From Minisyncoccota bacterium (lineage in GTDB: Bacteria > Patescibacteriota > Minisyncoccia > Moranbacterales > UBA2206), in contig JARLIA010000013.1 of assembly GCA_031291955.1 (NCBI GenBank), positions 21,512 to 85,511 of the forward strand: a stretch of DNA of 64,000 nucleotides, written 5' to 3'. Under the pieces are notes generated by a model. The model was not told the DNA's origin and did not search any database. It saw nothing but the letters and a program-made list of their open reading frames with translations. The position numbers and the translations under genes are program-made. Position 1 is the first letter of the stretch. Each line of letters opens with the position of its first letter. Below are positions 10,040 to 62,384 of this stretch, piece by piece.

Positions 10040-10084
10040 TAAATAAGCCTATTGAGCGCCTTGTTATTTATAAGTACAAAAAAT

Positions 10085-11845
10085 ATGTTTGAAAATTTCT
10101 TAGCTAAAAAATACGTCGTGCCGGCGATCCTGCTTCTCATTATGTTCGGGGCTTTTGCGGTGCGCTTTTATCATTATGACACCTGGCTCTATTTCAAGAT
10201 GGACCAGTCGCGGGACGCTTTCACTATTTCCAATGCTGTCAAAAACGGTCCGGGAAATCTACCGCTTCTTGGAGCGCGAGCCGGCGCCACCAAAGTGACC
10301 TACGGATTCCTCCATCTCGGGCCGGTCTTTTATTATTTCCAATACCTTTCGGGCGTTATTTTCCATTCGACTTCTCCGCAAGTCTTCGCTTATCCCGATC
10401 TATTCTTTTCCATCGCCGTCCTGCCGCTCTTGTATATTTTTTTGCGCCTTTATTTCTCCCGTCTCAATTCTTTGCTGATTGTTGCGATGTACGCTTTCTC
10501 GTTTCTCGTCATTGAATATTCCCGCTTCGCCTGGAATCCGAATTCGTTGCCGTTTTTCACTATCTTGAGTTTTTACGGCCTGTTGAAATTTCTTCACGAG
10601 CCGGAGGAAAAAAAACGCAAATGGTGGCTCATTCTTTGGGCGATCGGACTCACGGTCGGATCGCAGCTTCACTTCATGGGTTTCTTTTCCTTAGTGGGAA
10701 TCTCGGCGCTTTTGTTTTTCTTCCACTACGAACTTTGGAAAAAAGAAAATATACGCGGCGTTTTTCAGGAAAATAATTTTCGCGTATTGGCCCTTTACGC
10801 GGGTCTGGCCTTTTTGGTGGTGCTGATTTTTTACGCCCCGGTCATCATCAGCGATTCCATGAAAAACTGGGCCAACACCAAAGATTTTTTTCAGGCTTTC
10901 TCCACTAAACAGGGAAATCGACCCATCACGACCCGGGCGATCATTGGTCTTCAGTCCCAGATTGAATATTACGTCATGATTTTTACGTCTTACATTATCA
11001 CCAAAGGCAGTAATAATACTTACGGCTCATTGCTATCCATTTTGATCGGCGCTCTGTTTGTCGGCGGCAGTTATCTGATCTATAAATTTTTCAAAGAGAC
11101 CAAGGACAATCTGCGGAAAGATTTTCTACTTCTGGTTTTTCTGTGGTTTTTCATCTTTTTGCTGATCACCATCCCGGTGGCCACGCAAATCGAACCGCGC
11201 TATTTCATTTTCACCTTTGCCGTGCCGTTTATCTTCTTGGGATTTTTTTTCGAGTTTTCCGAAAGAAGATTGCCTGAATATTCCACGGGAATCGCTATAG
11301 CCGTGACAGTCGTAATCCTTTTGGCTAACGCGTCCGGCACGTCGGCCTGGTTTTCCGAGCAGGCCAAATCGCAAAAGGAGCATCTGACGATTCATCGGAC
11401 TTTGATCTTAAAAACTAAAGACGGGGTGACGCTCGGCCAGTTGCAAGGTGTGGCCGATTATATCTATCAAAACCGGATCCCCAGCGACCGGATCTATTTT
11501 TACGTCAAACCCGAACACGTCCGGCCGCTTAATTATCTTTTCTTTGAAAAAAACGACAAGTCTTTCAACTATTATTCTTTCAAACTGAACGGCGATCCAT
11601 TGGCGCAATATTTCATCGTTTTGCCGTCCGATTATGCAGAGAGTGAAGTAGCGGCCAAAATTAATATCAACCAGCCGATGAATATAATTTCCATGCAGAA
11701 ATTCGGCCAGCTGGCCGTCTGGCAGGTCACTTTTCCGGGACGAACAGTGGACGGCAATTTCCAAGCCAAGTCCAAAGACTCGAATGTGGAATCGGACCGG
11801 GTTTATTGGAAAGATGTTTTCGGGACGAAGAAACCTAAAAATTAA
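10085..11845 (+). CDS. GT-C fold membrane glycosyltransferase paralog 1 (ArnT/PMT-like)
   Basis: Shares the family N-terminal motifs with paralogs 2-6. These are the first-loop ...W..FxxDQ(A/S)RDA motif, HLGPxYYYF, AYPDL/V..FSI..IPLLY and SRFAWNPNS, plus a QLH block. More than 10 TM helices, then a roughly 250-aa soluble C-terminal domain. The ATG at 10085 is preferred over the ORF-track start at 10052. Confidence 0.6.
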   Translation: MFENFLAKKYVVPAILLLIMFGAFAVRFYHYDTWLYFKMDQSRDAFTISNAVKNGPGNLPLLGARAGATKVTYGFLHLGPVFYYFQYLSGVIFHSTSPQVFAYPDLFFSIAVLPLLYIFLRLYFSRLNSLLIVAMYAFSFLVIEYSRFAWNPNSLPFFTILSFYGLLKFLHEPEEKKRKWWLILWAIGLTVGSQLHFMGFFSLVGISALLFFFHYELWKKENIRGVFQENNFRVLALYAGLAFLVVLIFYAPVIISDSMKNWANTKDFFQAFSTKQGNRPITTRAIIGLQSQIEYYVMIFTSYIITKGSNNTYGSLLSILIGALFVGGSYLIYKFFKETKDNLRKDFLLLVFLWFFIFLLITIPVATQIEPRYFIFTFAVPFIFLGFFFEFSERRLPEYSTGIAIAVTVVILLANASGTSAWFSEQAKSQKEHLTIHRTLILKTKDGVTLGQLQGVADYIYQNRIPSDRIYFYVKPEHVRPLNYLFFEKNDKSFNYYSFKLNGDPLAQYFIVLPSDYAESEVAAKININQPMNIISMQKFGQLAVWQVTFPGRTVDGNFQAKSKDSNVESDRVYWKDVFGTKKPKN

Positions 11846-11876
11846 ACGGTCCATTCGAGATTAGCTCAGGCCCGAC

Positions 11877-13517
11877 ATGACTATTGGAATGGAAAAAATA
11901 AAAAAGAAGATAAAAAAAATTCCGACAAGTATTTTGATTCTGACGGTAATTGTTCTAGTTGGGATTTTCTTGCGGACCCATAATTTCCACGCTTGGTTGG
12001 AATTTGACAACGACCAGGCGCGGGATGCGGCTTTGGTGAGCGACGTCGTGACCGGAAAAACCGCTTGGCCACTGCTTGGACCGACAATGAAAGGAACAAA
12101 CGATTCTTCGGAAAATCTGTTCCATGTTGGGCCGATGTATTATTATTTTGAAATTATTTCTGCCAAAATATTCGGCAATTATCCGGACAAGCTGGCCTAT
12201 CCGGATCTGATCTTTTCCATTCTGACCATCCCACTCTTTTATTATTTTTTGAAAAAATATTTCAGCGCCAATTTATCTTTGGCTCTCGCCGGTCTTTGGA
12301 CTTTTTCCTATTTCGCCATCAAATTTTCCCGCTTCGCCTGGAACACCAATTCCATGCCGTTTTTTATTTTGCTTTTTCTTTTGGGACTGGGAGAATTTTT
12401 GTTCCGGCGGGAAAAAACTTCCTGGTGGTGGGCGCTGGCTTTGGGGATCGCGCTCGGTGTGGGAGTGCAGCTTCACGCTATGCTTCTGGTTATGTTTCCG
12501 TTTTTTTGCTTGGGCGGATTTTTTCTGACTGTCAAAAGCGGAAAGGGGATGTGGCTGCGCTGGGGAAGCGTTCTTCTTATCGCGCTGGTTCTTAATGCCG
12601 GTCAGATAGTCCACGAACTCGACACAAATTTCCAAAACACGTATGCTTTTTTCCAGAACGCCAACGATCGTTCCGGATCTAGGGCGGATAAGTTTTCCCA
12701 GACGTTCGCTCTGGACGCGGCGTGCCATGTCCAATCCAACGCGTTCATGCCTTCCGCCCTTGGCGACAAGGACCATTGCAATTTTTTGAAGACCGCGGCG
12801 GGTTGGGTGGCTTTGGATTATGATTCCTATTGGCAGCTCGGATTCATTCTGGCGGCGCTGGCCTTTTCTTTGTTCGGCTATGCGGCATTGGTTCGGAATT
12901 TTTTGAAGGAAACCGACCGCGAGCGGAAAATATTTTTCGGACTGGCTCTTGGTTATATAATTCTCTTTTTCATTATCATGTTCGCTTCCATCCAAGAAGC
13001 GCCACTCCGCTATTTTCTTCCGTCTTTTTTTGTGCCTTATTTATTCCTGGGATTTTTGATCCAAGCCGGACAAAAGAAATATCCGCGCCGATATTTCCCG
13101 GTCGTGGCGCTGGGACTCGCGATCCTCCTGGCTCTGAACGTGATTTATCTCTTGACTGTCATTTCCCAGCTCGAGGCCAAGGACCGAAGCGGGAGCAGCG
13201 ACGTTATCTTGGGCGAGCTGGAATCGATGCGCGATTACATCATCACGACCGCCGCGCCGAGCAAGACTGCGTATTTTTCCGGCGGATCCCATTACGTTTT
13301 TCGTTTTCTCCGGCCGCTCCAATATTTGGCTGGCAAGGACAATTTCTCGATTAAGCAAGAACCCCAACTGTTTGCTAGTATGAAACCAGGAGAACCGGTA
13401 TTTTACATTTATGCCAGCTATCCCCGGAAAAAATTAACCGCAATCAAGGGGATGCCGATCGTGACTTACAAAAATTTCGGCCAAGTGGCCGTGTACGAAG
13501 TGATTAAGACGAAATAA
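11877..13517 (+). CDS. GT-C fold membrane glycosyltransferase paralog 2
   Basis: Motifs FLRTHNFHAWLEFDNDQARDA, HVGPMYYYF, YPDKLAYPDLIFSIL, SRFAWNTNS and QLHA; 31 bp after paralog 1. Confidence 0.6.
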   Translation: MTIGMEKIKKKIKKIPTSILILTVIVLVGIFLRTHNFHAWLEFDNDQARDAALVSDVVTGKTAWPLLGPTMKGTNDSSENLFHVGPMYYYFEIISAKIFGNYPDKLAYPDLIFSILTIPLFYYFLKKYFSANLSLALAGLWTFSYFAIKFSRFAWNTNSMPFFILLFLLGLGEFLFRREKTSWWWALALGIALGVGVQLHAMLLVMFPFFCLGGFFLTVKSGKGMWLRWGSVLLIALVLNAGQIVHELDTNFQNTYAFFQNANDRSGSRADKFSQTFALDAACHVQSNAFMPSALGDKDHCNFLKTAAGWVALDYDSYWQLGFILAALAFSLFGYAALVRNFLKETDRERKIFFGLALGYIILFFIIMFASIQEAPLRYFLPSFFVPYLFLGFLIQAGQKKYPRRYFPVVALGLAILLALNVIYLLTVISQLEAKDRSGSSDVILGELESMRDYIITTAAPSKTAYFSGGSHYVFRFLRPLQYLAGKDNFSIKQEPQLFASMKPGEPVFYIYASYPRKKLTAIKGMPIVTYKNFGQVAVYEVIKTK

Positions 13518-13539
13518 AAAATAAGATCCGATTGCCGTT

Positions 13540-15222
13540 ATGTTTTTTCAAATTCAAAAAAATATAAAAAAAAATTCCGCGGCCGGGTGGATTCTTTTGG
13601 CAATTTTTGTTGTCGGCGTTTTTTTGCGGACTTATAATTTTCACGCCTGGCTGGAATTTCGAAGCGACCAGGCGAGAGATGCGTACCGGACCGACCAGGT
13701 GGTTTCAGGAGAAAAGCCTTGGCCGCTTGTGGGGCCGTTTTTGAGCCATTCCGGTCCCACCGAAGACGAGTCGTTCCATGTTGGTCCGATCTATTATTAT
13801 TTCCAGATAATTTCCGCCGAAATTTTCGGCAGCTATCCCGACAAACTGGCCTATCCTGATGTCTTTTTTGCTATCTTGTCCATCCCGCTTTTCTATTTGT
13901 TTTTGCGGGAATACTTCGGCAAAAATGTTTCACTGGGGCTTACCGGGCTGTATTCCATCGGCGCTTATATTATCCGCTATTCCCGTTTTGCTTGGAGCTG
14001 CAATTCGATTCCGTTTTTCGTTTTGTTGTTTTTGCTGTCTCTTTTCAAGCTGTGGGACAAAAACGAAAAAACCGCCTGGGCTTGGGCGGTCGCGCTGGGA
14101 GTCGCCTGGGGAGTCGGGTTTCAACTGCACGCCCTGACGATGATCGCTTTTTCCGGCACGGCTTTTTTGGTTTTTATTTTTTCAATGAGGAAAAATCCCG
14201 CAACTTGGAAAAAATGGTCCGTGGTTTTGGCGATATTTGTTCTTTTGAACTCGGCTCAAGTTGTCGGTGAAATAAAAACCAATTTTGAAAACACCCGGGC
14301 TCTTTCGCGTTTTCTTTTTCAGAACGGTTCCGCGGATAACCCGAGTGGTCTCGACAGTTCGAATCCCATCAATCACGCCGGCGTTTCCACTTTGTTGAAA
14401 AACGACATCGATTGCAGCCTGGAGGCCAATTTTTTGTACCTGTCGTCTTACAATGACGTCGCTTTCGGCCGCGAAAATTGTCAGGGAAATTATTGGAAAC
14501 TTTTTTCGCGGAGCAATACGAAAAAACATTCAAAAGTATCTTGGATAAAGATCGGCGATGTGGTTCTTTTTTCCAGTCTTGTTTTTTCCCTCGTTGGCTA
14601 TTTTCTTCTGTTGTTCTATGATAAAAAAGAACCAAATGAAAGAAAGCGGCGTTTTCTGCACCTGCTTGTTCTGTATACAGGCTTGGCGTTTTTGCTCATG
14701 CTGCCTCTGAGCAGCGGAAAATTCGGCGATTTGAGATATTTCAGTCTTCTTTTTTTCTTGCCCTTTTTGTTTTTAGGGCTTATCGCAAAACTTCTCTTCG
14801 AAAAAGTCGCTCCAAAATATATTGCAATACCGGTTGCGGCTGTAATTTTTTCCTTGTTTGCGGCTTCCAATGTTTCGGCGATAACTTATCGGCTTTCAAT
14901 ACTTTCCAAAAAAGAAGGCATGGACTCCGGCACGGCTGTCCTGGGAGAAATGGAAGACACGCTTGATTATGCGATTTCCCATTCAAACGGGCAGAAAAAA
15001 ATATATCTAGGAGGGAACCGTTCTTTAACGGCCCATTCTTTCGACTCTTTGCAATATCTGGCCGGGAAACAAAATGTGGGGCTGATAAAATTCGGCGACA
15101 AAGATAAACTGGACCCGGCCAAGAAACCGGCCTTCTGTGTTGATGATAAAATAGATAAAAAAGAGGCCGTTTACGGTTATAAAAAAGTGGGCAACGTTTA
15201 TATTTATCAGATAAACAAATGA
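13540..15222 (+). CDS. GT-C fold membrane glycosyltransferase paralog 3
   Basis: Motifs FLRTYNFHAWLEFRSDQARDA, HVGPIYYYF, SRFAWSCNS and QLHA; 22 bp after paralog 2. Confidence 0.6.
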   Translation: MFFQIQKNIKKNSAAGWILLAIFVVGVFLRTYNFHAWLEFRSDQARDAYRTDQVVSGEKPWPLVGPFLSHSGPTEDESFHVGPIYYYFQIISAEIFGSYPDKLAYPDVFFAILSIPLFYLFLREYFGKNVSLGLTGLYSIGAYIIRYSRFAWSCNSIPFFVLLFLLSLFKLWDKNEKTAWAWAVALGVAWGVGFQLHALTMIAFSGTAFLVFIFSMRKNPATWKKWSVVLAIFVLLNSAQVVGEIKTNFENTRALSRFLFQNGSADNPSGLDSSNPINHAGVSTLLKNDIDCSLEANFLYLSSYNDVAFGRENCQGNYWKLFSRSNTKKHSKVSWIKIGDVVLFSSLVFSLVGYFLLLFYDKKEPNERKRRFLHLLVLYTGLAFLLMLPLSSGKFGDLRYFSLLFFLPFLFLGLIAKLLFEKVAPKYIAIPVAAVIFSLFAASNVSAITYRLSILSKKEGMDSGTAVLGEMEDTLDYAISHSNGQKKIYLGGNRSLTAHSFDSLQYLAGKQNVGLIKFGDKDKLDPAKKPAFCVDDKIDKKEAVYGYKKVGNVYIYQINK

Positions 15223-16857
15223 AAAATTATCTTAAAAATGTTACGGCCCGTGCTTGGATCCTTTTGGTGATCATGGCTGTTGGAATATTTCTGCGTGCTT
15301 GGCATTTTCATGACTGGCTGCGTTTCAGCGAGGACCAATCACGGGATGCTGGCATAATAAGCAATGTTATTAAAGGTGAAAGTCCGTTGCCGCTTTTGGG
15401 ACCCGTGGCTGGCGGTACGTTTTTCCATTTGGGTCCGGCTTATTATTATTTTTCCATTGTTAGCTCTAAGCTGTTTGGGGACTATCCGGACAGGATGGCT
15501 TATCCGGTTTTGTTTTTTTCCATTTTGGCCATCCCGCTGCTTTATTTGTTTTTGAAGGAATATTTCAGTTGGCGAATTTCGTTGGCTGTAACGGCAGTAG
15601 CGAGTGTTTCGTATTTTTCTGTCGTGAGCTCGCGTTTTTCCTCTAATCCCAATCTGGCGCCGTTTTTTGTGTTGGCTTTTCTGTATTCCTTTTTGAAATT
15701 GCTTAATGATAAAGAGCGCGCGTCTTTTTGGTGGCCGGCCGCGATCGGAACCGTGTTGGGAATCGGCATCCAGATCCACACCACGCTTCTGGTTATTTTG
15801 CCGATTTTTACCCTGCTGATGCTGGCGTATCTCATAAAAAAGACCGGCTGGCGGGCGGTGCGCTATGCGTTGGTAATCATAGTTTTATCTTTGGCGATGA
15901 ACGCGCCGCAGATCGCAAGCGAAATCGAAACCCGCGGCCAGAACACTATTCAGTTTTTCGGCGGCTTGGGCCTGAAAGGGAGTTCTTCCGGTAGTGGCCT
16001 GGCTCAGGGTGCTCTGACTGCCGCACTTTGCCAAGCCAAAGCCAACTCCTATTTCATTTCTTCTTTTCCCGCTGCCCAGACCTGCTCGTCCGGCATAGAT
16101 TTCGATCTTGAAAAAGGCGCCAAGGAAGTGTTTGGCGGCATTAAGGACCGCTCCTTCCGGCAAAACGTCTATCTGGCCGACGTTTCATTTTTGTTTCTTT
16201 TTTCCATTGGGGGGTTATTTTTTGTTGATTTATAATCTTTTAAAAGAAAAAGACGCCCGGAAGAATAATTTTCTCGCGCTGGTCGCTCTTTTCAATTTCG
16301 TTTCGTATATTTTAATCATCCCTGTCATTTCCTCCATGGCCGTGAGCTATTTCATCATTCTGCTTTTCGTGCCGTTTGTGCTGCTTGGATTGATGTTTCG
16401 ATATATCGAAGAGAATATGAAACTGTCTGGAATAGGATTGATTTTATTTTTAGCGGCTGTCCTGATGATTTTTTCGCTGCAGGCGGAAAAGAGCGACGCG
16501 GATCTTTATGTTGCTCGCCTTGACAACAACGTGGAAAACAGCGACCTGGGAGCGATTGAGGATATCTCCGCCTACATTCTGGATAATTCGTCTTTTGCTC
16601 CGAAGATTTATTTGAGTGGCAGAAAAGATTATTTGAACCGGTTCTCCGGCTCGCTTACGTACATGATTGGACGGCAGGGAAGGCAGCTGGTATCATTGGA
16701 CATAAGCGATTCCGACACTCTCCGCTCCGGCCAGACATTTTTCTATGTCCAAAAAAGCGGGAAGGGGAGTGTGACTCGCAATGAAGAGATCGGGGGATAC
16801 GCGGCTGTTGACGGTGAAAGAATCGGCGGCGTGGAAATTTATATTTTGAAAAAATAA
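15219..16857 (+). pseudogene. GT-C glycosyltransferase paralog 4, interrupted by a frameshift (ORFs 15219..16235 and 16108..16857)
   Basis: The N-terminal ORF carries the family motifs (FSEDQSRDA, HLGPAYYYF, SRFSSNPN). Homology to paralog 5 continues in the second ORF's frame from about 16200: GGYFLLIYNLLKEKDARKNNF aligns with GYYFLIYNFVREKENGRKNF. The frame change maps to a G6 run at 16209..16214. Confidence 0.6.
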
Positions 16858-16870
16858 TGTTTTCGAAATT

Positions 16871-18469
16871 ATGAAATCGATTCCGGACAAAATTAAAAAT
16901 ATCTCGAAATATTTTTGGGTTTTCCTGGCTATTTTTCTGGTCGGTGTTTTTCTCCGTACGTATAAATTCCATGATTGGATGCGTTTTTCTATGGACCAGG
17001 CGAGAGATGCCGCCATCATCAGTAATGCTGTTGCCGGGAAAGCACCCTTGCCGTCCCTTGGGCCAGATGCTGGAAACACTAAGTTTTTGCTCGGGCCGAT
17101 GTATTACGATTTGTCTTATCTCAGCGCTAAAATATTCGGAAATTATCCCGACAAGATGGCCTATCCCAGCCTGGCTTCCGGCATCTTAGCTATTTTGTTC
17201 CTATTCTTTTTTCTTCGCGAATATTTCGACCAAAAAATCTCGCTGGCGCTTACGGGAATCATGAGTGTTTCATATTTCATGATCGACACATCCCGTTTTT
17301 CATCGAACCCTAATCTGGTGCCGCTTTTTGTCATTCTGTTTCTCTGGGGGTTGCTGAAAATTATCAATGACCCGCGGGAATTTCATCCCGGCTGGAGCGC
17401 TCTGGTCGGTTTTGCCCTGGGCATGGGGGTCCAGATGCACGCCATCACTTTGGTGGTGATGCCGGTTTTCGGTCTTTTAGCTCTGGTTTATTTTTGGAAA
17501 GTAGGCGGAAAGGGGATGGGAAAAAGTTTGATCATAATTATCGCGTTAGCTTTGCTTTTCAACATCGGGCAGATCACGTCGGAACTTCACACTAATTTTC
17601 AAAACACCCGGAATTTTTTCCAAGGGCTCAAGAGCAAATCAGAAAACAATTATGGGGAGGGTGCGGGTCTCATTGCTGCTTGTCAGATCGAGGCCAACGG
17701 TTATTTTCTGACTTCCATCGGTGATGACTATGATTGCGGTGATATTTTCAAAACACCCAAAGGCGGCTGGATCGCCGACAAATCTTATCTTCTGACGCTG
17801 GCTGCCTACACGCTCTTTTCGCTGACCGGTTATTATTTTTTGATTTACAATTTTGTCAGAGAAAAAGAAAATGGGCGGAAAAATTTTCTGGGACTGGTCC
17901 TTCTTTTTAATCTACTGACTTTCATCGTACTTGTAAGTGTTTCCAGCGTTATCCATGTAGGGTATTACATCGTTCTGTTTTTCATGCCGTTCGTGCTTCT
18001 GGGAATTCTTATGGAAGCAGTGCGGAATAAATACGGCCGAAAGGGAATGCTGGCGGCCGCGGTGGTCATTCTTCTTTTGATCGGGTCTTCTTTGGCAGTG
18101 GACGGCGCGATGGCTTCAAGTTATGCTCAAGGTTTACAAAACAATTCAAGCAACAGCACGCTTTTTCAAGCTGAAGCGATGGCGGATTATATCCTGACAA
18201 CCAGCCCCCAAAATGTTTCCAAGGTTTATTTCGCCGGGCAAGGGAGTTTGGCCAAACGCTACTATGACGCGACCATCTATCTTGTCCGGCAAAGCGGCCT
18301 AAATATGTCTTTGATCAAAGATGTCGACAGCCGCAGGATTGCGCCCGGAGTGCCGATTTATTACATCGCCCAAAGCGGCGCTTATCCGGTACCGGGAATG
18401 ATTGGTAACCGCCAGATAACAGCCAGTCGGCAATTTCTCAACCAGACGATTTATATTTTGAAAAACTAA
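16871..18469 (+). CDS. GT-C fold membrane glycosyltransferase paralog 5
   Basis: Motifs FLRTYKFHDWMRFSMDQARDA, LGPMYYD, YPDKMAYPSL, SRFSSNPN and QMHA. Confidence 0.6.
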   Translation: MKSIPDKIKNISKYFWVFLAIFLVGVFLRTYKFHDWMRFSMDQARDAAIISNAVAGKAPLPSLGPDAGNTKFLLGPMYYDLSYLSAKIFGNYPDKMAYPSLASGILAILFLFFFLREYFDQKISLALTGIMSVSYFMIDTSRFSSNPNLVPLFVILFLWGLLKIINDPREFHPGWSALVGFALGMGVQMHAITLVVMPVFGLLALVYFWKVGGKGMGKSLIIIIALALLFNIGQITSELHTNFQNTRNFFQGLKSKSENNYGEGAGLIAACQIEANGYFLTSIGDDYDCGDIFKTPKGGWIADKSYLLTLAAYTLFSLTGYYFLIYNFVREKENGRKNFLGLVLLFNLLTFIVLVSVSSVIHVGYYIVLFFMPFVLLGILMEAVRNKYGRKGMLAAAVVILLLIGSSLAVDGAMASSYAQGLQNNSSNSTLFQAEAMADYILTTSPQNVSKVYFAGQGSLAKRYYDATIYLVRQSGLNMSLIKDVDSRRIAPGVPIYYIAQSGAYPVPGMIGNRQITASRQFLNQTIYILKN

Positions 18470-18549
18470 GTAACTAACGCGGGGACGTGCCATGTTCCCA
18501 GTTGGAAAACAGCGTTTGGACATGGTACGTCCAAAGTCGAAGCAAGAAG

Positions 18550-20175
18550 ATGCAAGAATATTTTAAAAAAATTATGCGGCAAAAAACTTTCTGGCTCCTG
18601 GTCGGGATAATCTTGGTCGGCGCATTTTTGCGGACTTATCAATACGCCAATTTCCTGCGTTTCAACCCCGATCAGGCGCGGGACGCCGGCATAATTCGCG
18701 ACGCAATCGACGGAAAGGCCGCTTTGCCGCTCCTGGGACCGAAAGCCGGCGGCACCAGTTTCCAATTGGGGCCGGTTTTTTATGATTTCGCGTATTTCTC
18801 CGCCAAGATTTTCGGCGCGGCGCCGGACAGGATGGCTTATCCCGATCTTCTGACCTCGATTTTGTTCCTGCCGCTTCTTTATGAGTTCGCGCGTAAATTC
18901 TTTTCAAAAAATATTTCCTTGGTCGCGACGGGGTTGGCGGCTGTGTCGTTTTATGCTGTGAAATATTCCCGCTTTGCTTGGAATCCCAACTCGACGCCTT
19001 TTTGGATCCTGCTGACTTTCTACGCTTTTTTCGAATTGGTTCGGTCCGGTCAGAGAAAGCGTTGGCTTTGGGCGATTGTTTTGGGTCTCGCGGCCGGTGT
19101 TGCCATCCAGCTGCATTCTTTGGCCTTGTTCTCACTGCCGGTCGTTTTTGTGATTTATTTTGTTTATCTTTTTTTCAAAAAAAATCCGGCTTGGAAATGG
19201 GCGCCGGTTGTTCTGGCTGTCGTACTGTTGGCTAATTCGTTCCAGATTGCGAGTGAAGTCCAGACTGGAGGCAAAAACATCCAGTCCTTTTTTCGCGGCA
19301 TGCACGCCAAAACTTCCCGCTCCGGAACGTTAGCGGATAAGTTTGTGCTCGACGCCGTCTGCCATATTCAAGGAGAGAGCTATATGATTCTCCCGATCGG
19401 CAACGACAGTCATTGCGATTTTATGGACGCGGCCGGCAGTTTACAAAAAAATAGCAATAATAATTTTCTTTTGTTGGGAGATATGCTTTTTGCCGTCATT
19501 TTTGTTCTGGGTGGATACTTTCTTCTTTTCCGAGCTTGGTGGAAAGAAACGGACGAGCGGAAAAAAATATTTTTGGAACTTATCCTGCTTTATGCGGTTG
19601 TTCTTTTCGTCCTGTTGATTCCTTTGGCCGACGAGATTTCTTTCCGCTTTTTCCTGGTGGCGGAATTTCTGCCGTTCATTTTCGCCGCTTTGTGGATCAA
19701 GTTTTTCGAAGAACGTCTTGAGAAAAAATACTTTATCATTGTTGTAGCTATAATCGTAGGTATGGCCGTAGGTACGAACCTGACGACTTTGACGGATTAT
19801 GCCGCCAATTTGGCCGGTGTTCGGGCACAGGGCTCCAACGGTTTTGAAGAGATCACGCTGGGCGAAGTGAAATACATGGCTGATTTTATGGAAACCAATT
19901 CGGGCGGCGCTAAGATTGTTTATGTCCAGGGCAGTGCTGCCGATCTTTTCGAGGTCCTAAAGCCGATCGAATATTTCACAAGTCCCTCCGGCCTCAAAGT
20001 GATCCAGCTCAAAAAAGGAAAAATTTTGGCGCCGATGGACAAAATTTTTCTCATCAATGTCATGAAAGATCCAACCAAGAAAAATACTCTTTCCCAAAGC
20101 ACTCTAGATAGCTATAGCGTCCTGGCTTCCGGCCGGTACGGTCGTGTCAAGATTTATGAATTGGAAATGAAATAG
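18550..20175 (+). CDS. GT-C fold membrane glycosyltransferase paralog 6
   Basis: Motifs FLRTYQYANFLRFNPDQARDA, LGPVFYDF, YPDLLTSILFLPLLY, SRFAWNPNS and QLHS. The internal ATG at 18550 (MQEYFKK) is preferred over the GTG-type start at 18487. Confidence 0.6.
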   Translation: MQEYFKKIMRQKTFWLLVGIILVGAFLRTYQYANFLRFNPDQARDAGIIRDAIDGKAALPLLGPKAGGTSFQLGPVFYDFAYFSAKIFGAAPDRMAYPDLLTSILFLPLLYEFARKFFSKNISLVATGLAAVSFYAVKYSRFAWNPNSTPFWILLTFYAFFELVRSGQRKRWLWAIVLGLAAGVAIQLHSLALFSLPVVFVIYFVYLFFKKNPAWKWAPVVLAVVLLANSFQIASEVQTGGKNIQSFFRGMHAKTSRSGTLADKFVLDAVCHIQGESYMILPIGNDSHCDFMDAAGSLQKNSNNNFLLLGDMLFAVIFVLGGYFLLFRAWWKETDERKKIFLELILLYAVVLFVLLIPLADEISFRFFLVAEFLPFIFAALWIKFFEERLEKKYFIIVVAIIVGMAVGTNLTTLTDYAANLAGVRAQGSNGFEEITLGEVKYMADFMETNSGGAKIVYVQGSAADLFEVLKPIEYFTSPSGLKVIQLKKGKILAPMDKIFLINVMKDPTKKNTLSQSTLDSYSVLASGRYGRVKIYELEMK

Positions 20176-35712: not shown

Positions 35713-36822
35713 ATGCTTTATATACTTATCATTATCACCATAGTTGCCATAGGATTTTTAGCAATCCTTGTTTTAGACATGAAGAAGAAGATGGGCGGCG
35801 GACAGGAGGATGAGAGGACGGCGGCTATCCTTGAGCGGTTGGCGATTATTTCTGAACAGAATCGAACCTTGTCTGAACAGAACCGGGAATTGAGAAATGC
35901 GGTTGACATCAAATTGGCCGAGACGCACCGGGCTACGCAAGACCAGATCAGCCACACTATGCGGACGATGCAAGGCATCACCGGACAATCGGCCAAGCAG
36001 ATTGCCGACGTGGTGGCGGGGCTGACTAAGTTGGAAGAGACTAATAAGCAGGTCGTCAATTTTTCAGCCCAACTGCAAAACTTGCAGGATATTTTGAAAA
36101 ATCCGAAGCAAAGAGGAGTGCTGGGGGAATATTTTCTGGAAGAAACTTTAAAAAATGTTTTGCCGCCCAACGCTTATCAGATGCAATACGGCTTCAAGGA
36201 TGGAGTGATTGTGGATGCGGTGGTGTTTGTTCAGCAGAAGATCATTCCGATCGATTCCAAATTCAGTCTGGAGAATTACGAAAGGATTCTGGCGTCAAAA
36301 GACAGCGAGGATCGCGAGCGGTGGGAAAGAATATTCAAACAGGATCTCAAAAACCGGATCGACGAGACTTCCAAATATATCAAGCCCTCCGAGGGGACGA
36401 TGGATTTCGCTTTCATGTTCATTCCGTCCGAAGCGATTTATTACGATTTATTGGTCAATAAGGTTGGCGCGGCACAGGTTTCCACGCGCGATCTAATCGA
36501 ATATGCCTTTAAGGACAAGAAAGTGATCATCGTTTCCCCAACGTCTTTTTTGGCCTATCTTCAGACGGTGATGCAGGGCCTGAGAGCTCTCCAGATCGAA
36601 GAAAGTGCCAAGCAGATCCGGACCAACGTGGAAAAATTGGGCCGCCACATAACGACCTTCGATGATTTCATGAAAAAAATCTACAACAGCCTGGGCACCA
36701 CAGTTAATCATTTTAACGCCGCTTACAAAGAATTTGGCAAGATCGATAAAGATGTGGCTAAAATTACCGAGGGTGAGAAAACGATCGAACCGATGGTGCT
36801 GGAAAAACCGAAAGAGGATTAA
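35713..36822 (+). CDS. rmuC: DNA recombination protein RmuC
   Basis: N-terminal TM, coiled coil, and an RmuC core (GVLGEYFLEETL...DGVIVDAVVF...IPIDSKF...DFAFMFIPSEAIY). Confidence 0.7.
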   Translation: MLYILIIITIVAIGFLAILVLDMKKKMGGGQEDERTAAILERLAIISEQNRTLSEQNRELRNAVDIKLAETHRATQDQISHTMRTMQGITGQSAKQIADVVAGLTKLEETNKQVVNFSAQLQNLQDILKNPKQRGVLGEYFLEETLKNVLPPNAYQMQYGFKDGVIVDAVVFVQQKIIPIDSKFSLENYERILASKDSEDRERWERIFKQDLKNRIDETSKYIKPSEGTMDFAFMFIPSEAIYYDLLVNKVGAAQVSTRDLIEYAFKDKKVIIVSPTSFLAYLQTVMQGLRALQIEESAKQIRTNVEKLGRHITTFDDFMKKIYNSLGTTVNHFNAAYKEFGKIDKDVAKITEGEKTIEPMVLEKPKED

Positions 36823-59495: not shown

Positions 59496-60413
59496 ATGAA
59501 CGAGCAATTAGCAAAAAATTTCGCGCCCGGGCACTCCGCTTGCGCGGGCTGCGCCTTTCCGGCCATCGTGCGGGCGGTCTTGGGTGAGGTGGCGGACGGG
59601 ACGGAAATTGTTGTCGCCAACGCGACCGGGTGTCTCGAAGTGACTTCCACCCTTTATCCCTACACTGCCTGGAAGATTCCCTGGATCCACAACGCTTTTG
59701 AAAACGCGGCGGCGACGCTCTCTGGCGTGGAAAAGGCTTATGAAATTTTGAAACGCAAGAAAAAATTGCCTGGTGGGGACAAAAAAATAAAATTTGTGGC
59801 TTTTGGCGGTGATGGTGGCACGTATGACATTGGACTGCAATCTCTTTCCGGAGCGCTTGAACGTGGTCACAATTTTCTCTATGTCCTTTATGACAACGAA
59901 GGCTACATGAACACCGGTAACCAACGCTCGTCCGCTACGCCCTTTGGCGCCGCCACTGAAACGACGCCGACCGGCAAAGTCTCGTTTGGAAAAACCGAAG
60001 TCCGGAAGAATCTGATGGACATCGTGGCCGCCCATCACATTCCGTACGTGGCTCAAGCGAACGTGGCGTTTATGGCTGATCTCAAAAGAAAAGCCAAAAA
60101 AGCCTTGTCCATTGATGGTCCGACTTTCCTTTCCGTCTTTTCTCCTTGCACTAACAACTGGAAATTTCCGACTTCCCAATATGTTAACATCGCGAAACTC
60201 GCGACCGAAACCAATTTCTGGCCGCTCTATGAGATTGAAAACGGGAAATACAAAATCAACTGGGCGACGGAAAAACCCAAAAGTCTGACTGATTTTTTGA
60301 AAACTCAAGGACGCTTCAAGCACTTGTTTTCTGAAAAAAACAAGGATGTGATCGAAGAGATGCAAAAGATTACGGATGACGAGTGGAAACGCCTGGTGGG
60401 CTTGGTGGAGTGA
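59496..60413 (+). CDS. porB: 2-oxoacid:ferredoxin oxidoreductase, beta subunit (TPP-binding)
   Basis: CAGC-F...GCLE cysteines and the GGDGGTYDIG TPP-binding motif. Confidence 0.85.
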   Translation: MNEQLAKNFAPGHSACAGCAFPAIVRAVLGEVADGTEIVVANATGCLEVTSTLYPYTAWKIPWIHNAFENAAATLSGVEKAYEILKRKKKLPGGDKKIKFVAFGGDGGTYDIGLQSLSGALERGHNFLYVLYDNEGYMNTGNQRSSATPFGAATETTPTGKVSFGKTEVRKNLMDIVAAHHIPYVAQANVAFMADLKRKAKKALSIDGPTFLSVFSPCTNNWKFPTSQYVNIAKLATETNFWPLYEIENGKYKINWATEKPKSLTDFLKTQGRFKHLFSEKNKDVIEEMQKITDDEWKRLVGLVE

Positions 60414-60424
60414 CCCCTCTGTCC

Positions 60425-60465
60425 CGATGATTACATCGTGACATCTCCCCTGATTACAGGGGAGA
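60425..60465. terminator. double hairpin (CGATG-atta-CATCG and TCTCCCCTG-atta-CAGGGGAGA) between porB and the tRNA cluster
   Basis: Two perfect stems (5 bp and 9 bp) with identical ATTA loops; no strong T-run. Confidence 0.3.
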
Positions 60466-60491
60466 ACGACAAGGAAAAGACTGTTTGCGGG

Positions 60492-60707
60492 AGCCGAAGA
60501 CCGGACTTGAACCGGTAACCTACGGTTTACCCGCCCGAAATGCTTGAGCCCTCTGCCAGAATTGAACTGGCAACCTACGGTTTACGATACCGTTGCTCTA
60601 CCAATTGAGCTAAGAGGGCATTTCAAGCGGGCGCGGCGATACCGTTGCTCCTAGCCCGCATCGCTACGCGAAGCGTTGCGAGCGGGTACCAATTGAGCTA
60701 CTTCGGC
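60492..60707 (-). tRNA. interrupted second tRNA-Thr(CGU) copy: 5' half 60637..60707 (with a 36-nt D-loop insertion) and 3' half 60492..60529
   Basis: Joining the halves and removing the D-loop insert gives GCCGAAGTAGCTCAATTGGTAGAGCAACGGTATCGTAAACCGTAGGTTACCGGTTCAAGTCCGGTCTTCGGCT. This is a perfect cloverleaf, with acceptor GCCGAAG/CTTCGGC and T-arm ACCGG/CCGGT. Confidence 0.45.
60547..60619 (-). tRNA. tRNA-Thr (anticodon CGU)
   Basis: Manual cloverleaf: acceptor GCCCTCT/AGAGGGC (7 bp), D-arm GCTC-AATTGGTA-GAGC, anticodon arm ACGGT-AUCGUAA-ACCGT, variable AGGTT, T-arm GCCAG-TTCAATT-CTGGC, discriminator U; 73 nt with no CCA. Confidence 0.8.
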
Positions 60708-60748
60708 GACTTATTTAATATTACATAAGTATTTAAAAAAAATCAATT

Positions 60749-61267: not shown

Positions 61268-61279
61268 ACTGACAAAAAA

Positions 61280-62384
61280 ATGACCAAAGAACTGGAAGAA
61301 AGATTGCAAAAAATCAAAAATAAAATCGCTCTTTTGAGCGACTATCTTTGACTTACCGGGCAAACTTAAAAGAATAGAAAGTCTGGAAAAAGAGTCGTCG
61401 ACGACCGGCTTTTGGGATGACGCGCAAAACGCCGGAGGAATAATGCGGGAATTGGAAGAATTGCGTTCCGAGGTCAGGATGCTTGGCGATTTGGAAAGCG
61501 AAGCGGATGAGTTGGTGGAATTTATGGAAGTTTTTTCCGAGACGGACGCGACCAGTGAAGATGAAGATAAGGAGGTGGGAGGTAGGCTGTCTGTTATGGA
61601 AAAGACAGTCGACCAGCTTGAGTTTAAGACTCTGTTTTCTGGCCAATATGATCGGAATGACGCTATTGTGACAATCATGAGCGGAGCCGGCGGGTTGGAT
61701 GCCCAAGATTGGAGCGAAATGCTGCTCCGGATGTATCTGCGCTGGGCGGAAAAAAATAATTTCCGGGCCAAGATCGTTGATGAGGCGCGCGGGCAAGAAG
61801 CGGGAATAAAAAGCGTAACTTTGGAAGTGAGTGGCTCGTATAGTTACGGGTGGCTCAAAAGCGAAGCGGGCGTTCATCGATTAGTGAGACTCTCGCCGTT
61901 TAACGCCGATAATCTCCGTCAGACTTCCTTTGCTTTGGTGGAAGTCATGCCGGTAATTGAAGAGATAAAAGAGGTCAAAATAAATCCAGCCGATCTGCGA
62001 ATCGATGTTTATCGTTCCAGCGGCGCGGGCGGCCAAGGAGTGAATACGACCGATAGCGCCGTGCGCATAACGCATATCCCGACCGGAATCATGGTTACTT
62101 GTCAGAATGAAAGATCCCAGCTGCAAAACAAAGAATCGGCCATGAAAATTCTCCGCGCCAAATTGCACCAAAAATATCTTTCCGAGCAGGAAGCGGAAAA
62201 AAGAAAATTGCGGGGCGAATCGGTAGCGGCCGAATGGGGGAGTCAGATCCGATCCTATGTCCTTCATCCTTACAAAATGGTGAAAGATCACCGCACCAAA
62301 CACGAAACCGCCCAAGCGGAGGAAGTCCTTCTTGGAAATCTTGACGAATTTATGGAAAGTTACTTGAGGTCTCTCAAGAAATAG
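61280..62384 (+). CDS. prfB: peptide chain release factor 2, expressed via programmed +1 frameshift (frame 0 61280..61348, then +1 frame 61350..62384)
   Basis: Frame 0 MTKELEERLQKIKNKIALLSDYL ends at TAT CTT TGA C (61343..61352), identical to the E. coli RF2 slippery site. The +1 frame continues ...FSGQYDRNDAIVTIMSGAGGLDAQDW...[23 protein letters not shown]. Confidence 0.85.

What the first reader, a model, noticed from the sequence alone, without database searches (positions are those of the whole stretch)
60492..60707. A complete tRNA-Thr(CGU) nested inside the anticodon loop of a second, split tRNA-Thr(CGU) gene
On the minus strand, a canonical 73-nt tRNA-Thr(CGU) (60547..60619) is flanked by two half-molecules: 60637..60707 (acceptor 5' strand, D-arm, anticodon stem up to AUCG) and 60492..60529 (UAAACCGU through T-arm to acceptor 3' strand). 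Joined, the halves give a second perfect tRNA-Thr(CGU). Its 41-nt D-arm to anticodon-arm core is identical to the inner tRNA, but its acceptor stem (GCCGAAG/CUUCGGC vs GCCCUCU/AGAGGGC) and T-stem (ACCGG/CCGGU vs GCCAG/CUGGC) differ with full compensation. The roughly 107-nt intervening segment therefore sits within the anticodon loop (between positions 35/36) and contains the entire inner tRNA. The segments flanking the inner tRNA (CGCUUGAAAUGC and GCAUUUCGGGCG) can pair into a 12-bp helix with two G-U pairs, which would bring the outer halves together. This is not a classic group I intron (too short, and it contains a tRNA) and not a simple tandem duplication. It could be a nested 'tRNA-in-tRNA' processed by an RNase-P/Z or endonuclease pathway, a footprint of a tRNA-targeting integrative element or gene-conversion event, or an assembly artefact.
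Basis: seen in the sequence. Interest (0 to 1): 0.8.

Follow-up and report, generated by a model that had tools for sequence, protein, structure and literature searches.

The report
tRNA gene nested inside a tRNA gene
In this uncultivated CPR bacterium, a complete threonine tRNA gene bounded by short inverted repeats has been inserted exactly into the anticodon loop of the resident threonine tRNA gene, and relatives show the same "Russian-doll" replacement again and again, a kind of tRNA-gene insertion I found no report of in bacteria.

Summary
The outer tRNA-Thr(CGU) is split into three exons, not two. A 36-nt hairpin (IVS1) sits in the D-loop, and a 107-nt segment (IVS2) sits at anticodon position 34/35 or 35/36. 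IVS2 consists of a complete inner tRNA-Thr(CGU) between two 17-nt inverted-repeat flanks.

It is not an assembly artefact: an independent assembly is identical, and homologous nested loci occur in other species.

The host is a CPR bacterium (Moraniibacteriota-like). Close relatives (L189, L190-192; PorB 92-93% identical) have the empty site, with the same locus, strand and flanks. There the window's "outer" sequence is one uninterrupted 73-nt gene (73/73). So IVS1 and IVS2 are recent insertions into the resident gene.

Among 42 related loci, 16 carry tRNA-Thr shells or fragments around an intact tRNA, always on the same strand (16:0). The shells range from perfect to badly decayed.

No group I core, archaeal BHB motif, integrase or transposase was found.

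Best reading (about 0.6): the inner tRNA is the working gene, and the outer is a freshly disabled shell that still supplies the transcription context. The cause is a site-specific, intron-like cassette that carries a spare copy of its own target. Splicing of the outer gene is not excluded (about 0.13).

The parts
60687..60707 (-). Outer tRNA-Thr(CGU) exon 1: acceptor 5' strand, D-stem 5' strand and D-loop (positions 1-21), GCCGAAGTAGCTCAATTGGTA
   Evidence: Spliced-alignment DP and manual dissection. Identical to positions 1-21 of the uninterrupted orthologue in L189, L190 and L092.
60651..60686 (-). IVS1: 36-nt insertion in the D-loop of the outer gene (between positions 21 and 22). It is a GC-rich hairpin plus a CTAG tail.
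   Evidence: Absent from the L189, L190 and L092 orthologues. Folds alone at -20.7 kcal/mol. Unique in the window. The boundary is unambiguous, with no target duplication.
60637..60650 (-). Outer exon 2: D-stem 3' strand, anticodon-stem 5' strand and loop up to C34/G35, GAGCAACGGTATCG
   Evidence: Identical to the orthologue.
60620..60636 (-). IVS2 5' flank, CCGCGCCCGCTTGAAAT: the inverted-repeat partner of the 3' flank
   Evidence: Pairs with 60530..60546. Homologous flanks lie at the same tRNA position in L088 and L020.
60547..60619 (-). Inner, intact tRNA-Thr(CGU), the presumed working gene
   Evidence: ARAGORN. Rfam RF00005 68.7 bits. All stems are perfect.
60530..60546 (-). IVS2 3' flank, CAAGCATTTCGGGCGGG
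   Evidence: Family motif CAA(A)GCAWWTTCGGGCRG|GTAA is shared with L020, L088 and L095, with a trace in L109.
60492..60529 (-). Outer exon 3: rest of the anticodon loop, variable loop, T-arm, acceptor 3' strand and discriminator
   Evidence: Identical to the orthologue.
60718..60746 (-). Candidate promoter upstream of the OUTER gene only (TTGATT-N17-TAATAT, 10 nt before G1). Weak evidence.
   Evidence: Read from the sequence. It scores only 8/12 and fails the strict scan. The 41-nt spacer is 35/37 conserved in L189. The inner gene has only GC-rich flank upstream.

Best explanation
The resident tRNA-Thr(CGU) gene of this Moraniibacteriota-like CPR bacterium has recently been interrupted twice.

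- A 107-nt cassette sits in the anticodon loop. It is a complete, different tRNA-Thr(CGU) allele bounded by about 17-nt inverted repeats.
- A 36-nt hairpin sits in the D-loop.

The inner tRNA is now the functional gene. It is inferred to be transcribed from the promoter upstream of the outer gene and cut out of the nested precursor by the ordinary 5' and 3' tRNA-end processing enzymes (RNase P and a 3' end nuclease). The outer exons are a young, still-perfect shell that will decay, as older shells have in relatives.

Because the insertion brings a spare copy of the very gene it breaks, it costs the host little. The same process has run repeatedly in this lineage, giving Russian-doll loci where the innermost copy is always the intact one.

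The cassettes behave like site-specific, intron-like or homing elements. Each flank family has its own insertion position. Insertions show no target duplication and always have the same orientation. The enzyme, or the recombination route that moves them, is unknown. One possibility is gene conversion after DNA uptake from a donor allele that was already interrupted.

Shown here: the architecture, the polarity of insertion, its recency, its recurrence, the co-orientation, and the absence of known intron signatures.

Inferred: which copy is functional, the transcription and processing route, and the mode of spread.
For: 1. Empty site. L189 and L190-192 (PorB 92.5-93.4% aa identity) share the synteny PorA-PorB-[tRNA, minus strand]-Rbr-prfB-FtsE. 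L189 also has orthologous flanks (35/37 upstream, 66/74 downstream). All carry the window's outer sequence as one uninterrupted gene, 73/73. The more distant L092 has it too.
2. Recency. Fourfold-site identity to L189 is 0.58 (JC d about 0.62). A neutral shell would be expected to carry about 22 changes since the split. It carries 0, so the event falls within about 13% or less of the branch.
3. Recurrence. Complete or near-complete outer shells surround an intact tRNA in L010 (DP score 105.6), L088 (81.5), L026 (74), L020 (58), L093, L092 and L089. The opposite-strand null is -5 to 21 in the +-450-nt scans and about 25-37 in the whole-locus scans. ARAGORN intron mode calls L088 natively as tRNA-Thr(cgt) i(34,110), and calls the window minus IVS1 as i(35,107).
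4. Census. 16 of 42 loci have a tRNA-Thr fragment of at least 18 bits in the flanks on the same strand. The opposite strand has 0 of 42 and controls 0 of 39; p = 3e-5 for orientation.
5. Decay series. L026 has lost its anticodon. L020, L092, L093 and L089 have lost or damaged arms. Many loci keep only 5' or 3' fragments.
6. No locus has an interrupted tRNA-Thr without an intact one inside. The four relatives with no tRNA call that were tested (L007, L012, L016, L019) score at background.
7. L092 shows the chain directly. The window's outer allele is there the intact inner gene of an older, degenerate shell.
8. There are three flank families, each tied to one site, and they are shared across genomes.
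9. ACG is 30% of Thr codons, so a CGU-anticodon tRNA is needed.
Against: - There is no expression or processing data, so which copy works is an inference.
- The outer exons are flawless (0/73 changes) despite two insertions, which is also what continued selection on a spliced gene would give.
- No mobilising enzyme was found in the 64 kb.
- The flank families are better conserved between genomes than the tRNA cargo they enclose, and one cassette (in L020) holds AT-rich DNA instead of a tRNA. That fits poorly with a simple 'flanks plus cargo move as one unit' model.
- The promoter assignment is weak.
- The donor of the inner allele was not found.
Confidence: 0.6

Rival explanations
1. IVS1 and IVS2 are true introns of a new bacterial type. 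The nested precursor is processed so that both the inner tRNA and a re-ligated outer tRNA-Thr(CGU) mature. A helix-specific endonuclease would recognise the CCCGCC/GGCGGG-type stem that closes each IVS at the exon junction, and an RNA ligase would seal the cut. Both copies would then be functional.
For: - The outer exons are perfect (73/73 versus the orthologue) at a neutral distance of about 0.6.
- Insertions are precise, with no target duplication.
- IVS termini share a GC-rich closing helix.
- IVSs sit mostly in tRNA loops and at recurrent positions, as archaeal non-canonical introns do.
- They are strictly co-oriented.
- The precursor folds into a clean double cloverleaf with every outer stem formed.
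- Patescibacteria are known to be intron-rich, with group I introns at 35/36 (PMC13011429).
Against: - No BHB motif fits any boundary.
- No group I core or ribozyme was found.
- Most shells in relatives are damaged beyond function, including loss of the anticodon.
- No locus has an IVS-containing tRNA-Thr without an intact inner copy, which would be common if splicing worked.
- One small hairpin unit occurs inverted relative to the tRNA, as expected of a DNA element rather than an intron.
- RNase P and 3' end-processing cuts would leave 17-nt tails on both halves at the anticodon, with no known bacterial route to remove and seal them (established knowledge).
Confidence: 0.13
2. There is no dedicated element. 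The nesting is a by-product of DNA uptake and recombination or repair among the very diverse tRNA-Thr(CGU) alleles of this lineage. One route is capture of a foreign tRNA-Thr fragment at a break in the resident gene. Another is retro-insertion of a mature tRNA into a loop. Such events survive only because they restore function.
For: - The identical GCCGAAG allele occurs in genomes whose fourfold sites are saturated (L092, 0.33 identity), so alleles move horizontally.
- Close relatives carry unrelated alleles at the same locus (L189 versus L194).
- Cargo boundaries coincide with the mature tRNA ends.
- Flanks and cargo have separate histories.
- No mobility gene lies nearby.
Against: - Random capture does not explain conserved inverted-repeat flank families tied to specific tRNA positions in several genomes.
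- It does not explain the clean junctions with 0-1 nt ambiguity.
- It does not explain shells at 38% of loci.
Confidence: 0.2
3. The nested arrangement is an assembly or binning artefact: a chimera of two strains' tRNA alleles.
For: Two short contigs of the same strain (L002, L003) break inside the inner tRNA core. This suggests a graph branch there, probably a 41-mer shared with a co-occurring strain's uninterrupted allele.
Against: - An independent assembly (Logan SRR23300979, L001) is 100% identical over 4.9 kb spanning the locus.
- The 70 nt of IVS sequence (36 + 17 + 17) is unique and cannot arise from joining two tRNA alleles.
- Exact inner/outer repeats are only 14 nt.
- Homologous nested loci occur in unrelated samples and species.
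Confidence: 0.01

Closest known systems
Group I introns in bacterial tRNA anticodon loops, including the Patescibacteria introns at position 35/36 (PMC13011429)
   Same: Both occur in the same phylum and interrupt the anticodon loop at the same or an adjacent position. Both are precise insertions without target duplication, co-oriented with the host gene, patchily distributed and missed by standard tRNA finders.
   Different: IVS2 has only 34 nt of non-tRNA sequence, so it has no P3-P9 catalytic core, and Rfam Intron_gpI gives no hit even at E<=10. There is no U at -1. Its cargo is a tRNA. A second IVS lies in the D-loop and others lie in the D-stem or T-arm, where group I introns of tRNAs are not found. 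Host exons decay in relatives.
Archaeal BHB introns at non-canonical positions and multi-intron, split or permuted tRNAs (Thermoproteales, Nanoarchaeum; PMC3218864)
   Same: Both show several short, hairpin-like intervening sequences per tRNA at D-loop, D-stem, anticodon-loop and T-arm positions. Related IVSs sit at the same position in different tRNA alleles, and the arrangement breaks standard tRNA finders.
   Different: The host is bacterial (prfB with frameshift, FtsE, MacB/FtsX). No bulge-helix-bulge motif fits any boundary. No splicing endonuclease was seen in the window. The interrupted genes look non-functional in most relatives. I found no report of archaeal introns carrying a complete tRNA of the same isoacceptor.
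Integrative elements (phages, islands) that target tRNA genes and carry a copy of the displaced tRNA segment
   Same: The logic is the same: the insertion restores the function of the tRNA gene it disrupts, and it leaves tRNA fragments behind. Successive events pile up fragments.
   Different: Those elements are kilobases long, encode an integrase, replace only the 3' (or 5') part, and leave direct-repeat fragments in tandem at the element ends. Here the unit is 107 nt with no ORF, carries a whole tRNA, has inverted-repeat ends, and the old gene's two halves flank it (nested, not tandem).
Non-autonomous palindromic mini-elements (MITEs, REP/RAYT units, Rickettsia palindromic elements, IS200/IS605-type hairpin ends)
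   Same: These are short, GC-rich, hairpin-forming units with sequence families shared between genomes. They can sit inside genes, have no ORF, and one unit here is found in both orientations.
   Different: There is no target-site duplication. The window has no dispersed family. Insertion is confined to tRNA-Thr loops and to loops of earlier hairpins. Some units carry a tRNA. No transposase was identified.
Twintrons and nested transposon insertions
   Same: An element is inserted inside an earlier element, giving layered structures from which the order of events can be read.
   Different: Here each layer is a copy of the same functional gene, and only the innermost layer stays intact.

Membership tests
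Group I intron (tRNA anticodon-loop type) | Conserved catalytic core (P3-P9) detectable by a covariance model, with a length of about 200 nt or more | tested here: not met
   Rfam 15 cmscan of the window at E<=10, and of nine related loci at E<=1, gives no Intron_gpI hit. IVS2 has only 34 nt outside the inner tRNA, and IVS1 is 36 nt.
Group I intron (tRNA anticodon-loop type) | U at the last exon position (-1) and G at the intron 3' end | tested here: not met
   The last exon base is C34 or G35 for IVS2 and A21 for IVS1. Both IVSs do end in G.
Archaeal/eukaryal BHB intron | Bulge-helix-bulge motif (3-nt bulges separated by a 4-bp helix) with the two splice sites in the bulges | tested here: not met
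   An exhaustive hBHBh' scan of the window, L010 and L088 precursors found no strict candidate that coincides with an IVS boundary pair.
Archaeal/eukaryal BHB intron | Host encodes a tRNA splicing endonuclease (EndA) and an RtcB-type ligase | not testable with these tools
   Only 64 kb of the genome is available. None of about 50 ORFs scanned has such a domain. The rest of the genome was not seen.
Integrase-mediated tRNA-targeting integrative element | Tyrosine or serine integrase gene within the inserted DNA | tested here: not met
   The inserted DNA is 107 nt plus 36 nt with no ORF. No integrase is present in the window.
Integrase-mediated tRNA-targeting integrative element | Direct repeat of a partial tRNA segment (att core) at the two ends of the element | tested here: not met
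   The ends are inverted repeats. The old gene's 5' and 3' parts flank a complete new gene.
MITE / cut-and-paste transposon derivative | Terminal inverted repeats | tested here: met
   IVS2 has CCCGCTTGAAAT at its 5' side and ATTTCGGGCGGG at its 3' side, 12 bp with two G-T pairs. Types ii and iii also have inverted-repeat flanks.
MITE / cut-and-paste transposon derivative | Target-site duplication and multiple dispersed copies in the genome | tested here: not met
   Junction ambiguity is 0 nt (IVS1, type ii) or 1 nt (IVS2). No other copy exists in the window, and there is no dispersed GC-hairpin family.
Functional tRNA-Thr (for the inner gene) | Canonical cloverleaf, CGU anticodon, and the G1-C72 and C2-G71 pairs that E. 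coli ThrRS recognises (from my own knowledge) | tested here: met
   ARAGORN and Rfam at 68.7 bits. All stems are perfect. Aminoacylation itself is not testable here.
Functional tRNA-Thr (for the outer gene) | A continuous mature molecule is produced | not testable with these tools
   This needs RNA data. The comparative evidence (shell decay, and no interrupted-only loci) argues against it.

The most novel reading that the evidence does not exclude
Moraniibacteriota may harbour a previously unknown class of small, ORF-less, site-specific intervening elements. These would be GC-rich stems that open exactly at the exon junction and insert into tRNA loops and into each other's hairpin loops. They would be either (a) removed at the RNA level by an undiscovered bacterial, non-group-I, non-BHB tRNA splicing pathway, so that one nested transcript yields two mature tRNA-Thr molecules, or (b) a new kind of self-compensating selfish element whose cargo is a full replacement copy of its target gene. 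Option (b) would drive rapid allele turnover of tRNA-Thr(CGU), possibly in an arms race with stem-specific tRNases.
Probability: 0.3. Interest if true: 0.92.

Novelty: new variant of a known kind. Interest (0 to 1): 0.8.

Why it matters
[quoted passage not shown] Here a 107-nt, ORF-less unit carrying a whole tRNA has landed precisely inside the anticodon loop of the same isoacceptor's gene, and comparative data show this is a recurrent, oriented, site-specific process in a CPR lineage.

- **A new route of turnover.** It shows a way for essential RNA genes to be replaced in place ("break it but bring a spare").
- **An explanation for odd annotations.** It accounts for tRNA fragments and "missing" or odd tRNA calls in CPR genomes.
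- **A test bed for intron origins.** It gives a natural series, from perfect to decayed shells, in which the order of events can be read.
- **Practical consequences.** tRNA finders and completeness metrics will mis-score such loci.
- **If the outer gene is spliced.** That would be a third kind of bacterial intron.

Tried and rejected
- **Assembly artefact:** rejected. An independent assembly is identical, and homologues occur in other species.
- **Group I intron or known ribozyme in the IVSs:** no Rfam hit at permissive thresholds in the window or in 9 related loci.
- **Archaeal BHB splicing motif:** an exhaustive scan found no candidate at the boundaries.
- **Dispersed REP/MITE family in this genome:** IVS1 is unique in the window. 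A GC-hairpin scan finds 10 hairpins against about 3 expected, and none is of the CCCGCC..GGCGGG type.
- **Phage origin:** the IVS flank motifs in IMG/VR gave 1 and 24 hits, all chance matches inside coding sequence with no tRNA context. The inner tRNA's unique 3' half gave 0 hits. INPHARED blastn found only generic tRNA-Thr similarity of about 75%.
- **Nearby mobilising or processing enzyme:** Pfam scans of about 50 ORFs across the 64 kb found none.
- **Strict sigma-70 promoter or intrinsic terminator scan of the locus:** nothing passed. The by-eye promoter is weak.
- **Donor of the inner allele:** not found in about 200 fetched loci.
- **Weak IVS1 matches:** a 23-nt, 91% match of IVS1 in L092 and L021 lies in or near coding sequence at E = 0.025 and was judged chance.
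- **MAFFT alignment to L189:** it places L189's 5' half against the inner gene. That parse needs 8 mismatches, against 0 for the three-exon parse, so it was rejected.
- **Literature:** five searches found no report of nested tRNA genes or of non-group-I IVSs in bacterial tRNA genes.
Full report
**1. What is in the sequence**

All of this is on the minus strand.
- ARAGORN and Rfam both call one tRNA in the whole 64-kb window: tRNA-Thr(CGU) at 60547..60619, at 68.7 bits.
- Reading outwards from it, the flanks contain the pieces of a second tRNA-Thr(CGU), in three exons rather than two:
  - exon 1, 60707..60687, GCCGAAGTAGCTCAATTGGTA
  - exon 2, 60650..60637, GAGCAACGGTATCG
  - exon 3, 60529..60492, TAAACCGT...CTTCGGCT
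- Exons 1 and 2 are separated by a 36-nt GC-rich hairpin inside the D-loop (IVS1, 60686..60651).
- Exons 2 and 3 are separated by 107 nt (IVS2, 60636..60530). IVS2 consists of a 17-nt 5' flank, the complete inner tRNA and a 17-nt 3' flank.
- The IVS2 boundary is ambiguous by one G (34/35 or 35/36). The IVS1 boundary is unambiguous.
- Joined, the exons give a flawless 73-nt tRNA-Thr(CGU) that ARAGORN accepts.
- Inner and outer differ at 13 positions: four acceptor pairs, two T-stem pairs and one T-loop base. Every pair is compensated.
- The two flanks pair as 12 bp with two G-U pairs (60631..60620 with 60541..60530). The MFE uses a slightly different register.
- The 216-nt precursor folds into a complete cloverleaf within a cloverleaf at -101.8 kcal/mol. 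The 231-nt version has z = -5.8 against shuffles.

**2. Not an artefact**
- A Logan assembly of a different run (L001) is 100% identical over 4.9 kb spanning the locus.
- The longest exact repeats between inner and outer are 14 nt.
- The 70 nt of IVS-specific sequence cannot be produced by joining two tRNA alleles.
- Two short contigs of the same strain stop inside the inner tRNA core. A 41-mer shared with a co-occurring uninterrupted allele is the likely cause. This is worth checking in the reads.

**3. Host**
- The neighbours are PorCDAB, a rubrerythrin-like gene, prfB with its CTTTGAC frameshift, FtsE and MacB/FtsX, so the host is a bacterium.
- The closest PorB genes are in Candidatus Moraniibacteriota / Parcubacteria MAGs, which places it in the CPR/Patescibacteria.
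- ACG makes up 30% of Thr codons.

**4. Relatives**
- A tRNA-Thr(CGU) next to PorB is conserved in this group, on either strand.
- I wrote a spliced-alignment DP with a tRNA-Thr profile and masked the intact tRNA.
  - It recovers the window's three-exon outer gene at a score of 79.8, against -3.1 on the other strand.
  - It finds complete or near-complete outer shells around the intact tRNA in L010 (105.6, inner tRNA inside the D-stem at 23/24, outer perfect) and L088 (81.5, one 110-nt IVS at the same anticodon site as the window).
  - It also finds shells in L026 (74), L020 (58, four IVSs, one at the window's site), L093, L092 and L089.
- ARAGORN's intron mode independently calls L088 natively as tRNA-Thr(cgt) i(34,110). 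It calls the window as i(35,107) once IVS1 is deleted in silico.
- Many other loci keep only 5' or 3' fragments.
- In a threshold-based census of 42 non-redundant loci:
  - 16 have a tRNA-Thr fragment of at least 18 bits within 300 nt on the same strand as the intact gene;
  - none has one on the opposite strand;
  - none of 39 control regions has one;
  - the orientation result gives p = 3e-5.

**5. Polarity and age of the event**
- L189 (PorB 92.5% aa identity) and L190-192 (93.4%) share the window's synteny and strand.
- L189 also has orthologous flanks, 35/37 upstream and 66/74 downstream.
- All of them carry the window's outer sequence as one uninterrupted gene, 73/73. It scores 71.5 bits.
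- The more distant L092 has it too.
- So the outer gene is the resident, and IVS1 plus IVS2 (with the inner gene) are the newcomers.
- Fourfold-degenerate sites are only 58% identical between the window and L189 (JC d about 0.62). A neutral shell would be expected to carry about 22 substitutions since the split, and it carries none. Either the interruption lies within about the last 13% of the branch, or the exons are still selected.
- IVS1 and IVS2 are 14 nt apart, so a single gene-conversion tract from an already doubly interrupted donor could have delivered both. This is inference.

**6. A Russian-doll series**
- In L092 the window's outer allele is the intact innermost gene. It sits inside an older, degenerate shell (acceptor GCCATCT) that has a D-loop hairpin and a T-arm replaced by a hairpin.
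- Across loci the innermost copy is always the intact one.
- Shells run from perfect (window, L010, L088), through anticodon-less (L026), to fragmentary.
- No locus has an interrupted tRNA-Thr without an intact copy inside. The four relatives with no tRNA call that were tested with the DP (L007, L012, L016, L019) score at background.
- This pattern is what is expected if IVS-containing genes do not work and are tolerated only because a replacement is nested in them.

**7. The intervening elements**

IVSs that carry a tRNA fall into three flank families, each tied to one position:
- (i) ...GAAAT[tRNA]CAA(A)GCAWWTTCGGGCRG at 34/35-35/36. Found in the window, L088 and L020, as a relic in L095 and as a trace in L109.
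- (ii) CCTGCCCGCCATTGCCTAA[tRNA]AGGCKTAGGCAGGCGGGG at 23/24. Found in L010 and L026, in L020 with AT-rich filler instead of a tRNA, and as a 3' half in L009.
- (iii) CCGCACCATTT...[tRNA]...AATGGTGCGGGG. Found in L092 and L093.

Small cargo-less hairpins also recur:
- The Y unit, CCTGCCTRCCGGCAGGCAGG, occurs in T-arms.
- The X unit, a 5-bp hairpin plus ATAAACTCCA, replaces anticodon positions 34-38. Its stem covaries between genomes.
- One 36-nt unit is 97% identical between L086 and L103 but inverted relative to the tRNA. In L086 it lies inside the loop of another inserted hairpin.

Other points:
- The flank families are better conserved across genomes than the tRNAs they enclose. This is unexplained.
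- Junctions show 0-1 nt of ambiguity and no target duplication.
- The window holds no other copy of IVS1 and no dispersed family of such hairpins.

**8. Known mechanisms tested**
- Group I intron or ribozyme: no Rfam hit at permissive thresholds, and the IVSs are too short.
- BHB motif: no candidate matches any boundary.
- Integrase island: no ORF in the insert, inverted rather than direct repeats, and nested rather than tandem fragments.
- MITE: terminal inverted repeats are present, but there is no target duplication, no dispersed copies and no transposase.
- About 50 ORFs across the window encode glycosyltransferases and housekeeping functions. No transposase, integrase, reverse transcriptase, homing endonuclease, RNA ligase or splicing endonuclease was found.
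- Viral and phage collections gave only chance or generic tRNA matches.
- The literature held here has no report of nested tRNA genes. [quoted passage not shown]

**9. Most likely mechanism**

Shown:
- A complete foreign tRNA-Thr(CGU) allele with inverted-repeat flanks was inserted precisely into the anticodon loop of the resident gene.
- The event is recent.
- It belongs to a recurrent, oriented, site-specific process.

Inferred:
- Transcription starts upstream of the outer gene. A weak TTGATT-N17-TAATAT lies at 60746..60718 in a spacer that is conserved in L189. The inner gene has only GC-rich flank upstream. This would also explain why only co-oriented insertions survive.
- RNase P and the 3' end-processing nuclease release the inner tRNA.
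- The two outer halves, each left with a 17-nt tail at the anticodon, are discarded.
- The shell then decays and collects further hairpin insertions.

The insertion is nearly cost-free because it brings a spare copy of its target. How the cassette moves is open. Candidates are homing-like gene conversion after DNA uptake, a trans-acting enzyme that targets hairpin loops, and an RNA-mediated route.

**10. Rivals**
- True splicing of the outer gene (about 0.13) would explain the perfect exons. Shell decay and the absence of interrupted-only loci argue against it.
- Element-free recombination or capture (about 0.2) fits the horizontal movement of alleles. It does not explain the position-specific conserved flank families.
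- Artefact: about 0.01.

**11. Verdict**

This is a real and unusual locus. I found no published precedent for the arrangement. I file it conservatively as a new variant of target-restoring insertion into tRNA genes. There is a substantial chance (about 0.3) that it is a categorically new class of bacterial tRNA intervening element.

Noticed in passing
window 60405-60470 (minus strand); also L189:1812-1890, L093, L017, L007:7850-8060: A GC-rich multi-hairpin element lies immediately 3' of the tRNA locus (CTCCCCTG-TAAT-CAGGGGAG, GTCACGATG-TAAT-CATCGGGAC, then AGAGGGG). It is conserved in L189 (66/74). Similar units sit next to tRNA-Thr in L093 and L017, and in a tRNA-less intergenic stretch of L007. 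No Rfam family matches.
   Followed up: partly
L009, L018, L024, L026, L097 (shell anticodon loops); L017, L089 (shell D-loops): A recurrent 'X' unit, a 5-bp GC hairpin followed by ATAAACTCCA, replaces anticodon positions 34-38 of outer shells. The hairpin stem covaries between genomes (CCGCC/GGCGG versus CAGCC/GGCTG) while the 10-nt tail stays constant. It resembles the hairpin-plus-tail ends of ssDNA transposons, but that is only a recalled resemblance.
   Followed up: partly
L086 (upstream shell) and L103 (downstream shell): A 36-nt GC-rich hairpin unit is 97% identical between two genomes but inverted relative to the tRNA. In L086 it is inserted in the loop of another inserted hairpin. This suggests that the small units are DNA-level elements that target hairpin loops.
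   Followed up: partly
L004-L026, L084-L111, L189-L208: tRNA-Thr(CGU) alleles are hyper-diverse in the acceptor and T stems even between close relatives (L189 versus L194). There are two 'core' classes, and the gene lies on either strand next to PorB in different genomes. The identical GCCGAAG allele occurs in genomes whose synonymous sites are saturated (window lineage and L092), which implies horizontal movement of the allele.
   Followed up: partly
window 60589 / 60594 (ends of contigs L002 and L003): Two independent short contigs of the same strain end inside the inner tRNA's 41-nt core. This is consistent with an assembly-graph branch caused by a co-occurring strain that carries the uninterrupted allele.
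   Followed up: no
window 61268-62384: prfB has the classical +1 programmed frameshift site CTTTGAC at 61346. This is ordinary for bacteria and confirms a bacterial translation apparatus.
   Followed up: yes
window 10052-20175: A tandem array of at least six PMT_2-family (dolichyl-phosphate-mannose-type) glycosyltransferase paralogues sits within a large cell-envelope glycosylation region (about 1-45,600).
   Followed up: no
window 7535-9160 and 35713-36822: A Schlafen AlbA_2 / HATPase_c_4 protein and an RmuC-family protein are encoded here. Neither is linked to the tRNA locus.
   Followed up: no
L195-L200: In another lineage the rubrerythrin-like homologue (80% identical) sits next to an rve-family integrase and a NYN-domain gene instead of PorB and the tRNA.
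   Followed up: no
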